64,000 nt of DNA from a bacterium (GCA_963669175.1 OY769902.1:2208001-2272000), one strand, 5' to 3'; shown: positions 30,415 to 35,351, counted from the stretch's first letter. Program-made: numbers and translations. The notes: generated by a model from the letters alone, not told the origin.

Positions 30415-32307
30415 GTGGAAAATTTTGAACGCGTAACCGTCGAAACCGATCTTCTGATTATCGGTGGCGGTATGTCGATGTGTGGTGCTGCAGTAGAAGC
30501 CGCCCACTGGGCAAAGCAGCACAACCTGAAGGTTACCCTCGTGGACAAGGCCGCGATGGACCGCTCCGGCGCCGTCGCGATGGGGCTTTCCGCGATCAAC
30601 CAGTACGTTGACCTGACCTCCGGCAACAACACCGTGCAGGATTATGTCAACTACGTGAAGCAGGACCTCATGGGTATCACCCGTGAAGACCTGGTCGCCA
30701 ACATTGCTCGTCACGTGGACTCAACCGTCCACCTGTTCGAGAAGTGGGGACTTCCGATTTGGAAAGATGAAGCTGGCAATTACGTCCATGAAGGTCGTTG
30801 GCAGCTCATGATCAACGGTGAATCCTACAAGGTCATCGTTGCCGAAGCCGCGAAGAACGCCCTGGCGTCCCTCGGCGATAACGGCGAGATCTACGAACGT
30901 GTCTTCATCACCGAACCGCTGGTGAAGGACGGCAAGGTCATCGGCGCTATCGGCTTCAGCGTCCGTGAAAACAAGCTGTACACCTTCCTCGCCAAGTCCA
31001 TCGTGATGGGCATGGGCGGCGCGGTACACGTCTTCAAGCCGCGTAGCTCCGGTGAAGGTCTGGGTCGTGCATGGTATCCGCCGTGGAACACCGGTTCCTC
31101 CACATACTTCTGCGCGAAGGCCGGCGCTGAGCTGACCTGCCAGGAAGTCCGCTTCATCCCCGTCCGCTTCAAGGATGGTTATGGCCCGGTAGGCGCCTGG
31201 TTCCTGCTGTTTAAATCCCGCGCCACGAACGCCATGGGTGGTGAATACATGGTAGAACGCCGTGAAGAGCTCGAAAACTGGGCTCCCTACGGTAAGGTGA
31301 AGCCGATCCCGGCCAACCTGCGTAACTACCTTGGTATGCTGGACATCATGGAAGGCAAGGGCCCGATCTACATGCGCACCGAAGAAGCCATGCAGAAATT
31401 GGCCGACGCCTACAAGGATGACCCCAAGGGCTACAAGAAGAAGAAGAAGGAACTCGAGGCGGAAGCCTGGGAAGACTTCCTGGATATGACCATCAGCCAG
31501 GCGCTCCTGTGGGCGGCCAGCGATGTGCACCCGGAAGAACGTTCCTCCGAAATCGCCGCGGCAGAACCGTACTTCATCGGTTCCCACTCCGGCGCTTCCG
31601 GCGCATGGGTCTCCGGTCCGGAAGATCTGCAGACTGCAGATACGAAGGATGATTACTTCTGGGGCTATGCCAACATGTCCACCGTGCCGGGTCTGTTCTG
31701 CGCGGGCGACGCGTCTGGCGCCAGCTCCCACAAGTTCTCCTCCGGCTCCCACGCAGAAGGCCGTATCGCTGCCAAGGCCGCGGTCGACTACCTGCTGGAC
31801 AACAATGTCGCCCCGACCTATGATGGCGACCTTGATGCCATGTTCGAAAACCTGCTGACCCCGCTCAAGCTGTATGATGCGCATCACGCAGAGACCTCGG
31901 ACAACGAGATCAACCCGAACTACATCCGTCCCAAGATGTTCATGTTCCGTCTGCAGAAGATCATGGACGAGTACGCTGCTGGTGTGAGCTCACAGTTCAC
32001 CACCAACAAGCCGTCCCTGGAACGCGCCCTCGAGCTGCTCGGCCTCCTGGCTGAAGACAGCAAGAACCTGGCCGCTGCCGACCTGCACGAACTGATGCGC
32101 TGCTGGGAAAATGTCCAGCGCATGTGGCAGGCTGAAGTTCACGTCCGCACCATGTTGGAACGCCAGGAAACACGTTGGCCTGGTTACTACTTCCGTGCTG
32201 ACTGCCCGAACATTGACAACGAAAACTGGCTGAAGTTCGTCAACGCCAAGTGGACCGAGGAAAATGGTTGGGAAATGATCGACCGCGACGTGAAGTACGT
32301 GTTCTAA
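30415..32307 (+). CDS. aprA: Adenylylsulfate reductase subunit alpha (GTG start)
   Basis: RSGAVAMGLSAIN, WQLMINGESYK, RFKDGYGPVGAWFL, HKFSSGSHAEGR and ETRWPGYYFR. Confidence 0.97.
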   Translation: MENFERVTVETDLLIIGGGMSMCGAAVEAAHWAKQHNLKVTLVDKAAMDRSGAVAMGLSAINQYVDLTSGNNTVQDYVNYVKQDLMGITREDLVANIARHVDSTVHLFEKWGLPIWKDEAGNYVHEGRWQLMINGESYKVIVAEAAKNALASLGDNGEIYERVFITEPLVKDGKVIGAIGFSVRENKLYTFLAKSIVMGMGGAVHVFKPRSSGEGLGRAWYPPWNTGSSTYFCAKAGAELTCQEVRFIPVRFKDGYGPVGAWFLLFKSRATNAMGGEYMVERREELENWAPYGKVKPIPANLRNYLGMLDIMEGKGPIYMRTEEAMQKLADAYKDDPKGYKKKKKELEAEAWEDFLDMTISQALLWAASDVHPEERSSEIAAAEPYFIGSHSGASGAWVSGPEDLQTADTKDDYFWGYANMSTVPGLFCAGDASGASSHKFSSGSHAEGRIAAKAAVDYLLDNNVAPTYDGDLDAMFENLLTPLKLYDAHHAETSDNEINPNYIRPKMFMFRLQKIMDEYAAGVSSQFTTNKPSLERALELLGLLAEDSKNLAAADLHELMRCWENVQRMWQAEVHVRTMLERQETRWPGYYFRADCPNIDNENWLKFVNAKWTEENGWEMIDRDVKYVF

Positions 32308-32382: not shown

Positions 32383-32432
32383 CGGCTTGTCTCGCGCAAA
32401 GAGAAAAACTACATGTTTCACGCAAAGGACGC

Positions 32433-32722
32433 GTGGCCCGACTGCTTGCTGTCGGGTTTCAGCGTCTTCGTCTAGAGAGTACCTTCAAATGAACATGTTG
32501 CGTGACTACTGAGAGTGTCTGCAAAACAAAGCAATTCAGTGTTTGCTTTGTATGGGGCGATAAACTGTATTAGACTAAGATGGTTTTGTCACTAGACGAG
32601 CATTAAGTATTGGAGAACAAAGCGAATGCAAACTCACATTCGCAATGCCACTGGAAGCTAGCGGATCAATTCAAGCGTGAAATCCGTCCACTCAGAAACC
32701 CGAAAGCAAGTAGTCGGGCCAA
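32433..32722. repeat. Inverted pair of GTGG-family REPs (REPIN-like)
   Basis: GTGG-CCCGACTGCTTGCTGTCGGG-TTTC at 32433-32460 and an inverted copy with 3 mismatches at 32695-32722. Confidence 0.85.
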
Positions 32723-32784
32723 ACGACCTTAGGCTTAAAAGACATCAATACTCCTTAATGTTTAAAAGTTGAATCAAAATATTA

Positions 32785-33147
32785 CTATAATCCATATGGA
32801 AACCACAAATAAGTCACCCAACTTAATCCTATAACCGTAATAAAACTAATCCATCCCCATATATTTTTTGAAATAGAGATTCCTATTAGTGGAAAATTTA
32901 AAAACCCTGCCATAAAACCAAAAATTACCGATACGATCATTAAAGATTGTATTCTAGCAGTATTTAATTTTTTTATATAAAATTGATCAAGTTCGTATTT
33001 AGAGTTATAATAAATATCTTTTTTAATAGATCTTTTTAGTGAAGAATCAAATATTATTTTTGAAACTATAGGAACAAAGATCGTTATGACTAAGTTCCAT
33101 ACGATAGTAAATATCAGAAAGCTTAGAAACATATGTATTCTGTGCAT
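32785..33147 (-). CDS. Small AT-rich membrane protein (about 3 TM segments), passenger gene
   Basis: 120-aa ORF with RBS AAGGAG and hydrophobic helices; much lower GC than host genes. Confidence 0.65.
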   Translation of the reverse strand: MHRIHMFLSFLIFTIVWNLVITIFVPIVSKIIFDSSLKRSIKKDIYYNSKYELDQFYIKKLNTARIQSLMIVSVIFGFMAGFLNFPLIGISISKNIWGWISFITVIGLSWVTYLWFPYGL

Positions 33148-33175
33148 AATACACTCCTTGACTTGAAAGACGCGA

Positions 33176-33278
33176 CTACCCCGACTGCTTGCTGTCGGGT
33201 TTCAGCGTCTTTGTTGTGAGACTGTTGCGCGTCAGCTTTGAGCGTCTTCGTATAGGACGCGTCTTCATCGGGTCACGC
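33176..33278. repeat. REP copy plus a degenerate inverted half-copy between the passenger genes
   Basis: CCCGACTGCTTGCTGTCGGGTTTC at 33180-33203 (preceded by CTAC instead of GTGG); TCGGGTCACGC at 33268-33278. Confidence 0.75.
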
Positions 33279-33283
33279 CGTCT

Positions 33284-34162
33284 TTAGAATTGGGTATTAC
33301 CTGCTAGAAGATGTTTTGAACACTCATCAAGGAATTTCTTGTCATCAGAATGATTATCAGGAAATAGAGATTCTTCAGTTACTTTTTCACTATCTAGATA
33401 AGCTAAAATATCGCAGCAAATACTAACAGGAAAAATGATTTTAACAAGATATGCACCCAAATAATGATCAAGCCAAACCTGATCGTTCATGTGGTCATTA
33501 CTGACAATAGTGAAAACTCCTTCCTGAGCTCGAAGGTTGTGGTTAGTTCCTCTAGGTGGAGATAGTAATTTTAGAGTACCTGCATAGTCGCCAGATAAGT
33601 GGCGGTCGCGACTATGCATGAATGACCATACTACGTAGTTGCCGCTTTTATTGTCTTTTGTATTTCTAGTAGCAAAGAATAGTGCTATCTTAAATGATTT
33701 ACTCCAATCCAAGAGTCTAGTTGGAACGCCATAGTGTTGTGCTAAGCCTAAGAAGTCATGATATGGCGTATCCCATATTCTATATTTAGGTAATTGCCTT
33801 CCTCCTGAAATAGTACAATCAAATGAAAAGTATTTTTCTTTTGTTTCCGAATTATAATTAGGGATAACAACACCTTTTTCATCGGCTAATACAAGAAAAA
33901 GTCTGATAATATTCCTTTCGTATTCAATTATATTTCCACTATTGGTTGGATAATTGGGTCGTTCTAAGTAATATAGTTTTTCAAGCAATCTCTTATTATT
34001 GGGCCTAAATACACTAGGAATAAGTTGCCAATCATCAGCTTGACCGCGGAAATACCACTTATCAGAATTTAGCTGTTTTCTATGACCATTACTAAGCTTA
34101 TCAAGCAAGTTTAACAAATCATTAAGCTTGTTGATGATAAGAATTTCTGGATTATAAGGCAT
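33284..34162 (-). CDS. FRG domain protein, AT-rich passenger gene
   Basis: WYFRGQADDWQLIPSVFR, AQHYGVPTRLLDWS, ALFFA, NLRAQEGVF and ESLFPD. Confidence 0.9.
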   Translation of the reverse strand: MPYNPEILIINKLNDLLNLLDKLSNGHRKQLNSDKWYFRGQADDWQLIPSVFRPNNKRLLEKLYYLERPNYPTNSGNIIEYERNIIRLFLVLADEKGVVIPNYNSETKEKYFSFDCTISGGRQLPKYRIWDTPYHDFLGLAQHYGVPTRLLDWSKSFKIALFFATRNTKDNKSGNYVVWSFMHSRDRHLSGDYAGTLKLLSPPRGTNHNLRAQEGVFTIVSNDHMNDQVWLDHYLGAYLVKIIFPVSICCDILAYLDSEKVTEESLFPDNHSDDKKFLDECSKHLLAGNTQF

Positions 34163-34200
34163 TTGTATCCCTTGTGTGTTTTCTTGTAGACTTGAGGCGA

Positions 34201-34228
34201 GTGGCCCGACTGCTTGCTGTCGGGTTTC
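34201..34228 (+). repeat. GTGG-family REP
   Basis: GTGGCCCGACTGCTTGCTGTCGGGTTTC, identical to the copy at 32433. Confidence 0.9.
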
Positions 34229-34303
34229 AGCGCCGCTGGGTATCACAATCAAAGTATAACACATATTAATAAAGTACAACAATATCTACTACTTCAAGAA
34301 ATA

Positions 34304-34858
34304 TTATAACCTCAATGAATCAGCATTAATCGCGATCGGATCTGGCGCTCCCGTAGCCCACGCTTTTGCTGAACTCCACTTATATTCTTCCGGCAGTGTT
34401 ACCAATCCCGCTTTAACCGGATTGTTATGAATATAGTCAAGTGCCAAACGTATACGGTCGGGCGTCCACAGGTTGCGATCATGCCCGCCGCCATGTTGCC
34501 AGAACCGGTATGTAATCTCACCCTTGCGAATCACCTGTAGTTTTGCGTAAGTGAGCTGATCATGTTCTTTTAGCCAGCCAAGAGCAAAATGAGAAAAACG
34601 ACGTTTCAGTTTGCCCAGTTCCTTGCGGAAATCCACATCACGTGTTGGGAATACAAGAAAATGAACATGGTCAGGCATGATTACATAAGCCCATAATTCA
34701 AGATCGAACTCGTTGCGGAGGGTGTCCAGTTCGCGAAGGAAAGTTTCGCAAAGGAAAGGAATTTGGAAGAGGGGAAGGTGACGATAACAGCCGAAAGTCA
34801 GAAATCGTGCATAGCCGGGATCGTCAGTTCGTAAGCGTTTGGGTTTGATATCGTACAT
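34304..34858 (-). mobile_element. REP-associated tyrosine transposase (RAYT/TnpA-REP, Y1 HUH)
   Basis: FLTF, AYVIMPDHVHFLV (HUH), FWQHGGGHDR and YIHNNPVKAGLV..PEEYKWSSA; flanked by inverted REPs. Confidence 0.92.
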
Positions 34859-34910
34859 GGTTTCTCCATGTCTGGGTATAAGTCTCTACTACTTTACTAA
34901 ATACGGAATC

Positions 34911-35351
34911 AGAATCCCGACAGCAAGCAGTCGGGCCACGCGAGCTTGCGACTTGACTCAAGAGTTAATTGCGATGAAAATGAACACCATTAGAATCCTG
35001 ACAGCAAGCAGTCGGGCCACGCGAGCTTGCGACTTGATTCAAGAGTTTATTGCGATGAAAATGAACACCAATAGAAACCCGACAGCAAGCAGTCGGGCCA
35101 CGCGAGCTTGCGACTTGATTCAAGAGTTTATTGCGATGAAAATGAACACCAATAGAAACCCGACAGCAAGCAGTCGGGCCACGCGAGCTTGCGACTTGAT
35201 TCAAGAGTTTATTGCGATGAAAATGAACACCATTAGATACCCGACAGCAAGCAGTCGGGCCACGTGAGCTTGCGACTTGATTCAAGAGTTTATTGCGATG
35301 AAAATGAACACCATCAGAATCCCGACAGCAAGCAGTCGGGTCACGCGAGCT
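34911..35351 (-). repeat. Tandem array of 81-bp REP-containing units (6 REP copies)
   Basis: Units start at 34911, 34992, 35073, 35154, 35235 and 35316. Each has CCCGACAGCAAGCAGTCGGGCCAC followed by a near-constant linker, with a few substitutions between units. Confidence 0.97.

What the first reader, a model, noticed from the sequence alone, without database searches (positions are those of the whole stretch)
32433..35351. RAYT locus with REP-bracketed passenger genes: a candidate HUH-driven, integron-like cassette array
Seen: the order is REP(A,32433) - REP(B,32695) - membrane gene - REP(A,33180) - partial REP(B,33268) - FRG gene - REP(A,34201) - RAYT - 6x REP(B), where A and B are the two orientations. 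Both passenger genes are strongly AT-rich against the host and co-oriented with the RAYT. Each has only about 30-40 bp (an RBS, little room for a promoter) between the upstream REP and its ATG, and the FRG stop lies a few bases from the next REP remnant. Each passenger sits between the GTGG-side ends of two REPs, while the RAYT sits between REP tails. Known: RAYT/TnpA-REP enzymes are HUH nucleases that bind GTAG/GTGG-hairpin REPs on ssDNA and cut and rejoin nearby DNA; as far as I know they have no established role in gene capture. Inference: this locus may acquire and stack foreign genes as REP-delimited cassettes, with FRG a plausible stress or defence cargo.
Basis: partly seen in the sequence, partly recalled or inferred. 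Interest (0 to 1): 0.82.

Follow-up and report, generated by a model that had tools for sequence, protein, structure and literature searches.

The report
REP transposase locus with two passengers
A known kind of bacterial element (a hairpin-cutting transposase with its short palindromic repeats) has two foreign-looking genes wedged between its repeats; this probably reflects repeats being copied into nearby gaps rather than an integron-like gene-collecting machine, although occasional capture of genes by this enzyme is not excluded.

Summary
The anatomy is real. An intact RAYT (passes NF047646) lies among ten copies of a 123-copy REP family, with an AT-rich FRG gene (best PADLOC match: defence candidate PDC-S15) and an AT-rich orphan membrane gene between REPs. 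Corrections: the foot is G-Y-K-TGG, not fixed GTGG; the REP at 33180 has lost it; the 'partial REP' is 11 nt. No attC cores, no integron integrase, no excision joint, and none of 200 other RAYT loci holds these genes. For capture: the three same-strand REPs are sister copies, a second RAYT in this genome also encloses an AT-rich FRG, and 11 of 153 RAYT-neighbour genes elsewhere are REP-bracketed and slightly AT-richer (p=0.02). Best reading: a REPtron at a repeat-rich insertion site whose enzyme seeded REPs into the gaps of a small accessory island (0.5). Incidental RAYT capture 0.3; integron-like array about 0.1. Sequestering of flanking DNA by REP units was proposed in 2012, and this scan noted a similar arrangement on other DNA.

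The parts
30415..32307 (+). Host gene ending the sat/apr operon (aprA by context; left flank, not part of the element)
   Evidence: FAD_binding_2 and Succ_DH_flav_C, near ATP-sulfurylase; 92% identical in the same-genus genome G001
32414..32432 (+). Degenerate copy of a different host repeat, at which collinearity with G001 ends (left edge of the variable block)
   Evidence: 63 copies of that repeat at <=1 mismatch genome-wide; alignment to G001
32431..32468 (+). REP A1: foot 32431-32436, hairpin 32437-32456, tail shared with A2 and A3
32469..32694 (.). Unique spacer between the tails of A1 and B1 (GC 0.43, no long ORF)
32699..32724 (-). REP B1 (2 mismatches, TTGG foot)
32728..32756 (-). Ribosome-binding site, ATG and about six codons running into the foot of B1: probable start of a gene cut off at the REP
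   Evidence: read from the sequence; inference
32785..33147 (-). Orphan membrane protein gene, 120 aa, GC 0.26, two or three hydrophobic segments
   Evidence: only itself among 9 candidates; Atlas best score 0.84, a lead only; hydropathy
33174..33211 (+). REP A2: perfect hairpin 33180-33199, TGG foot lost
33212..33283 (.). GC-rich patch with decayed copies of the second host repeat and an 11-nt REP remnant at 33268-33278 (-)
33284..34162 (-). FRG-domain gene, 292 aa, GC 0.35; candidate defence gene
   Evidence: PF08867 E 3.9e-19; PADLOC PDC-S15 E 8.5e-34; nearest database proteins 31% identical
34199..34232 (+). REP A3 (GTGG foot), the RAYT's downstream REP
34304..34858 (-). RAYT / TnpA-REP, 184 aa, HUH and Y-x-x-x-NP motifs intact
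   Evidence: NF047646 83 bits against a cut-off of 80; best PDB match E. coli TnpA-REP 4er8, E 1.5e-4; motifs read from the translation
34911..35351 (-). Tandem array of six REP(B) units, period 81 bp, upstream of the RAYT

Best explanation
This is a REPtron (a RAYT gene with its cognate REPs) at a repeat-rich, variable site behind the terminator of the apr operon, beside a two-gene AT-rich accessory island. The RAYT binds the single-stranded REP hairpin through its 5' foot, nicks nearby DNA and rejoins it (shown for other RAYTs, inferred here). It acts mostly near its own gene, so it copied REPs with bits of their flanks into the nearest non-coding gaps and amplified the six-unit array. Tail-to-tail REP pairs in successive gaps automatically leave each gene between two feet. 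The brackets are then a footprint of local REP copying, not recombination sites that define cassettes. The genes arrived by a route the sequence does not record, with or before the RAYT.
For: Shown here: with the focal locus left out, this REP lies within 300 bp of 1 of 90 low-GC genes against 91 of 3391 normal genes, and on both sides of 0 of 90 against 1 of 3391; all repeat families together show no enrichment either. Sister REP pairs with shared tails also bracket host-like genes, at GC 0.58 and 0.48, and the first has homologues in 2 of 5 relatives searched. The other six FRG genes of the genome are just as AT-rich (0.32-0.37) and five have no RAYT beside them. The same REP in G003 (25 copies), G009 (11) and G001 (3) lay between ordinary genes in the stretches fetched, with no arrays of AT-rich genes. 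Among RAYT neighbours elsewhere, 23 of the 27 clearly AT-rich ones have no far-side REP. The site behind aprA collects other repeats in G001, and a GIY-YIG gene with its own repeats plus an unrelated FRG in G009. Literature: new REPs form preferentially near the rayt gene (Nunvar 2010, PMC2817692, passages); TnpA-REP cleaves more than 400 nt from a BIME and assembles tandem copies (PMC3333891, passages).
Against: A1, A2 and A3 are the only 3 of 123 copies with their 8-nt tail, and A2 and A3 the only 2 sharing a 7-nt motif upstream of the foot, so each passenger lies between direct sister repeats, as insertion with REP duplication would give. A second RAYT in this genome encloses an AT-rich FRG between its own inverted REPs. 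Bracketed RAYT neighbours in other genomes are somewhat AT-richer than unbracketed ones (median GC difference -0.049 against -0.007; 11 against 142 genes; one-sided p=0.023). Locus L175 shows REP pairs alternating with three short AT-rich genes.
Confidence: 0.5

Rival explanations
1. Incidental capture by the RAYT. Nicks at a REP and at a distant site release a single-stranded piece holding a REP plus flanking gene(s). Rejoining next to the resident REPtron inserts it and leaves a duplicate REP, imprecisely, as rolling-circle elements do. The passengers came this way, but there is no dedicated cassette platform.
For: Direct sister REPs around each passenger, all three with an extra outer stem. 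A gene start is cut off at REP B1, as an imprecise end would give. Second RAYT-FRG element in the same genome. 19 of 133 other RAYT loci with a cognate REP hold a bracketed ORF, and 5 further loci among 46 tested hold an ORF inside distal inverted repeats. Several such genes are defence-like: TIR, HEPN, AbiEii-type ATPase, Nmad3. Proposed in PMC3333891.
Against: Local copying predicts the same sister repeats. Many bracketed genes are ordinary (MgtE, Na/H exchanger, dehydrogenase, flavin reductase). The AT-rich share among bracketed genes is not significantly higher (4 of 11 against 23 of 142, p=0.11). No empty or alternative allele was seen.
Confidence: 0.3
2. Integron-like cassette array: REPs act as attC-like sites, and the RAYT inserts, stacks and excises single-gene cassettes next to itself.
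For: Short 5' gaps, no promoter-like sites, co-orientation with the RAYT, different GC of the two genes; repeated unit structure; L175-type arrays.
Against: No genome-wide link of REPs to foreign genes. Boundaries are irregular: a decayed foot, an 11-nt remnant, a truncated ORF. Passengers at other loci lie in either orientation. Most RAYT loci with a cognate REP have no bracketed gene (114 of 133). No credible excision joint in contigs. FRG genes in 18 other genomes of the phylum are almost never beside a RAYT (1 of 21).
Confidence: 0.1
3. RAYT-independent insertion: the genes entered by homologous or illegitimate recombination between short repeats (REP to REP, or the second host repeat), the RAYT being a bystander.
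For: The left edge coincides with another repeat family, and decayed copies of it lie beside A2. The site takes insertions in lineages with no RAYT there.
Against: The shared stretches are only 30-50 bp. A donor would need the same rare REP, found in 4 of 41 genomes searched.
Confidence: 0.1

Closest known systems
REPtron: RAYT/TnpA-REP gene with cognate REPs and BIME/REPIN arrays (Nunvar 2010 PMC2817692; Ton-Hoang 2012 PMC3333891; Quentin 2018 PMC6006769; Corneloup 2021 PMC8266576; passages read)
   Same: Y1 HUH enzyme passing NF047646, flanked tail-inward by inverted REPs; tandem array next to the gene; more than 100 dispersed copies; mismatched hairpin with a conserved 5' foot.
   Different: The foot is G-Y-K-TGG rather than GT(A/G)G. 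Whole AT-rich genes lie between the local REPs. RAYTs of this subfamily occur at several unrelated sites per genome and not behind aprA in the relatives examined. Subclass not assigned.
TIRtron/TIRYT (Di Nocera 2013 PMC3733652; passages read)
   Same: RAYT-like gene flanked by inverted repeats that are not GTAG-tagged; several such loci per genome, each with its own repeat.
   Different: Here the repeat is an abundant REP-like hairpin family, and there are passengers.
Integron cassette arrays (knowledge recalled, no paper read)
   Same: Promoterless-looking, co-oriented, AT-rich single genes separated by hairpin repeats beside a recombinase gene.
   Different: No IntI tyrosine recombinase over cut-off, no attC cores, no regular boundaries, no evidence of shuffling.
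Gene pick-up by rolling-circle HUH elements IS91/ISCR/Helitron (cited as the analogy in PMC3333891)
   Same: HUH chemistry; imprecise ends could truncate neighbouring genes, as seen at REP B1.
   Different: Y1 RAYT rather than a Y2/Rep-like transposase; no oriIS/terIS tested; mobility not shown.

Membership tests
REPtron (RAYT + REP) | Y1 transposase of the RAYT family with intact HUH and catalytic Tyr | tested here: met
   NF047646 83 bits, cut-off 80; HVH and YIHNNP motifs; best PDB match 4er8
REPtron (RAYT + REP) | Gene flanked by inverted cognate hairpin repeats | tested here: met
   A3 at 34205(+) and array from 34916(-)
REPtron (RAYT + REP) | Cognate REP dispersed in many copies | tested here: met
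   123 copies in 72 clusters
REPtron (RAYT + REP) | Canonical 5' GT(A/G)G tetranucleotide | tested here: inconclusive
   GTGG in 38 of 123 copies; TGG nearly invariant, consensus G-Y-K-TGG; atypical feet are described for other subclasses
REPtron (RAYT + REP) | REP-dependent ssDNA cleavage and strand transfer | not testable with these tools
   needs an in vitro assay
Integron | IntI tyrosine recombinase | tested here: not met
   TIGR02249: 15 weak matches in the genome, 0 over cut-off, none near the locus
Integron | attC sites (inverse core just after the stop, core at the far end) | tested here: not met
   No core pair after FRG; one lone inverse-core match and no core after the membrane gene (core patterns recalled)
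Integron-like array (works-like claim) | Repeat systematically bounds foreign genes | tested here: not met
   0 of 90 other low-GC genes bracketed; 11 of 153 RAYT neighbours bracketed
Integron-like array (works-like claim) | Cargo varies between strains at conserved repeats; excised circles | tested here: inconclusive
   No second strain with the locus; contigs only, which drop rare forms
FRG / PADLOC PDC-S15 candidate defence gene | Profile match | tested here: met
   PF08867 69.8 bits, cut-off 25; PDC-S15 E 8.5e-34
FRG / PADLOC PDC-S15 candidate defence gene | Anti-phage activity | not testable with these tools
   PMC9503650 (passages) calls Frg an ART-superfamily potential antiviral effector and possible NADase; a prediction only

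The most novel reading that the evidence does not exclude
Some RAYTs pick up whole foreign genes, often defence-like, as REP-bounded units and stack them beside their own gene, leaving a sister REP at each step. This locus, the second RAYT-FRG element in the same genome and arrays such as L175 would be footprints of an HUH-based gene-acquisition route that could supply the host benefit sought for RAYT-REP systems.
Probability: 0.2. Interest if true: 0.8.

Novelty: new member of a known kind. Interest (0 to 1): 0.36.

Why it matters
As an ordinary REPtron it adds a RAYT with a non-canonical G-Y-K-TGG foot from an uncultured lineage, and little else. If the capture reading held, it would bear on an open question: Bertels and Rainey (10.1101/2021.07.10.451892, passages) argue that RAYT-REPIN systems must benefit the host, and acquisition of defence genes would be a concrete, testable benefit. 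The locus gives a ready substrate set for that test: three sister REPs, one with a dead foot, and a second RAYT-FRG element in the same genome.

Tried and rejected
Genome-wide enrichment of low-GC genes at REPs: tested, negative (gene calls came from my own longest-ORF script, so counts are approximate). General FRG-RAYT pairing: 0 of 200 other RAYT loci had an FRG or membrane-gene hit by tblastn, and 1 of 21 other FRG loci in the phylum had a distant RAYT-like ORF within 1.5 kb. Empty-site mapping: G001 is collinear only up to 32432 and has a different downstream gene; the right-flank gene was not found in 5 relatives. Synteny checks of three other loci against 5 relatives were inconclusive because of rearrangement and fragmented assemblies. 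Reads: one contig joint 32461 to 34202 has only 23 letters on its short side, and similar REP-to-REP joints carry spacers of other REP pairs, so it was rejected as evidence of excision. Run X3, from another study, has near-identical aprA pieces and REP-bearing contigs but no cover over the two passengers and most of the RAYT; lack of cover in contigs at about 6x is not evidence. An outer stem as a family-wide REP feature: 17 of 114 against 12.4 in shuffles, rejected. The count of flank duplications across RAYTs (38 of 147 against 8 of 150 controls) is not used: it includes three artefacts and unmasked REP arrays. No RAYT match in 72,556 plasmids at E 1e-15; one weak match in viral contigs, not examined. 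Literature: one search returned nothing relevant; searches returned the RAYT papers cited, and no listed title or passage read describes integron-like capture of foreign genes by RAYTs; searches gave no experimental test of FRG/PDC-S15 (the two PDC-S15 papers were seen as listings only). One of the two supplementary files of PMC3333891 could not be searched, and Figure S7 was seen as legend only. No structure prediction or complex job was run.

Full report
Observation. The window lies at C1:2208001-2272000 of a single-contig 5.45-Mb genome of GC 0.50. Behind aprA (30415-32307) the order is REP A1 (hairpin at 32437, +), REP B1 (32699, -), a 120-aa membrane ORF (32785-33147, -), REP A2 (33180, +), an 11-nt REP remnant (33268-33278, -), FRG (33284-34162, -), REP A3 (34205, +), RAYT (34304-34858, -) and six REP(B) units at 81-bp period. 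GC is 0.26, 0.35 and 0.47 for the three genes (GC3 0.22, 0.27, 0.44; aprA 0.75), and the REP-to-ATG gaps are 32 and 38 nt. Contigs of two runs of the source sample tile the block at even depth and break only at REPs. The description is right except for the foot. Of 123 genome-wide copies 65 have TTGG, 38 GTGG and 14 CTGG; the conserved part is G at -6 (111 of 114 distinct contexts) and TGG; A2 has lost the TGG.

What the parts are. The transposase passes NCBIfam NF047646 (83 bits, cut-off 80), keeps the HUH and Tyr motifs and best matches E. coli TnpA-REP in the PDB. FRG matches PF08867 and PADLOC candidate PDC-S15 at E 8.5e-34; one paper calls Frg a potential antiviral ART-family NADase (PMC9503650, passages). 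Its nearest database relatives are 31% identical (4 hits including itself among 670 candidates), and one in G006 is 37% identical. The membrane protein found only itself. A ribosome-binding site, ATG and about six codons follow it and run into the foot of B1, which suggests a truncated next gene (inference).

The site. Of 41 genomes searched, 25 have aprA. I fetched the downstream DNA of 23 of the 24 relatives (two of them short, 0.3 and 2.3 kb); none had a RAYT hit there, and the downstream genes differ widely. G001 (same genus) aligns up to a copy of a second host repeat at 32414-32432 and then carries other repeat families. G009 has a GIY-YIG gene with its own repeats, an unrelated FRG and another AT-rich gene at the same place. 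The site is a landing place for repeats and accessory genes with or without a RAYT.

Tests of the cassette idea that failed. With the focal locus left out, 1 of 90 low-GC genes and 91 of 3391 other genes have this REP within 300 bp; 0 of 90 and 1 of 3391 have it on both sides; all repeat families together give 3 of 90 against 129 of 3391 (my own ORF caller). In G003, G009 and G001 the same REP (25, 11 and 3 copies) lay singly or in small groups between ordinary genes in the stretches fetched. All seven FRG genes in the genome are AT-rich and five have no RAYT beside them. In the phylum, 1 of 21 other FRG loci has a RAYT-like ORF within 1.5 kb, and none of 200 other RAYT loci (40 from relatives, 80 from metagenomes, 80 from GTDB genomes) holds FRG or the membrane gene. 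There is no IntI over cut-off and no attC core pair. No credible excision joint was seen, but contigs cannot show rare forms.

What favours some RAYT role. A1, A2 and A3 are the only 3 of 123 copies with their 8-nt tail. A2 and A3 are the only 2 with a 7-nt motif just upstream of the foot, which ends where the unique sequence of each passenger begins. All three can fold an extra outer stem. So the units are better drawn as direct sister repeats than as B...A brackets. However, sister pairs also flank host-like genes at two other places in the genome, so local copying explains them too. A second RAYT (C1:4919199-4919765, 36% identical) has an AT-rich FRG (28% identical to this one) between itself and its own inverted REP. 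Elsewhere, 19 of 133 loci with a detectable cognate REP have a bracketed ORF; two of these are the same locus and one holds RAYT duplicates. In a stricter neighbour test, 11 of 153 genes in 95 loci are bracketed and are AT-richer than the rest (median -0.049 against -0.007, one-sided p=0.023; strongly AT-rich 4 of 11 against 23 of 142, p=0.11; loci are not independent, one duplicate dropped). Of 46 testable loci lacking near repeats, 7 have distal inverted repeats, 6 of them (5 outside this genome) with an ORF inside. Bracketed genes are a mix of defence-like (TIR, HEPN, AbiEii-type ATPase, Nmad3), housekeeping-like and unknown proteins.

Mechanism. Shown for other RAYTs: binding to the single-stranded REP through its foot, cleavage 5' or 3' of it and over 400 nt away, and strand transfer that builds tandem copies (PMC3333891 and PMC8266576, passages); new REPs arise preferentially near the rayt gene (PMC2817692, passages). 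Inferred here: the RAYT seeded sister REPs into the gaps of an adjacent accessory island and amplified the array (0.5). The rivals are incidental RAYT capture with REP duplication (0.3), a true integron-like platform (0.1) and RAYT-independent recombination (0.1). Sequence from one strain cannot separate the first two.

Relation to what is known. It is a member of the REPtron class with a non-canonical foot. It is not an integron. Sequestering of flanking genes or fragments by BIME units was proposed in 2012, with examples of amplified local sequence only (legend of Figure S7). In searches I saw no paper showing capture of foreign genes by a RAYT. A preprint linking TnpA-REP to lanthipeptide diversification withdrew its causal claim in a post-submission note (10.1101/2020.03.09.984088, first part of the text read). 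Earlier notes of this scan report a similar 'possible but not shown' arrangement in a Bacteroidota contig and a passenger-bearing TIRtron; these are unchecked and not counted as support.

Verdict. The feature is real and of a known kind; the headline interpretation is not supported, and a weaker capture hypothesis stays open. Interest 0.36; novel reading probability 0.2, interest 0.8 if true.

Noticed in passing
L335 (G000 C1:4919027-4921000): Second RAYT and a divergently oriented AT-rich FRG enclosed together by long inverted REPs of another family, downstream of a 909-aa gene that looks like pyruvate phosphate dikinase; a cleaner passenger-inside-REPtron case than the focal locus.
   Followed up: partly
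L074:6858-9476: In G009 the same site behind aprA holds a GIY-YIG nuclease flanked by its own palindromic repeat pairs, an unrelated FRG and another AT-rich gene: a convergent nuclease-repeat-FRG insertion.
   Followed up: partly
L175:3666-8700: Metagenome contig with a RAYT followed by long REP pairs that reuse the RAYT-flanking tails and alternate with short AT-rich secreted or lipoprotein-like ORFans; the most cassette-like array seen.
   Followed up: partly
L026:4548-6759; L057:5669-6739; L281:5135-8038: REPtrons flanked by direct duplications of the end or start of a neighbouring gene (108, 74 and 692 bp); in L026 an AT-rich ORF lies inside the duplication with the RAYT. This may mark how REPtrons insert.
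   Followed up: partly
L333:4900-7300 (G000 C1:950900-953300): About 85 bp of REP plus tail is duplicated on both sides of a 546-aa gene just downstream of a tRNA-Leu.
   Followed up: partly
whole genome: The genome carries dozens of abundant short repeat families and six RAYT-like genes found by tblastn, several with their own repeats.
   Followed up: no
L098:4279-8024: The closest FRG relative found (37%) and a neighbouring large gene are bounded by an identical 30-bp inverted hairpin repeat in G006.
   Followed up: partly
G000 C1:4081352-4081420: A long TAGA/TTGA microsatellite beside the second-closest RAYT of the genome.
   Followed up: no
window:37214-38368: Fic-domain gene with a C-terminal HTH, two genes right of the REPtron.
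   Followed up: no
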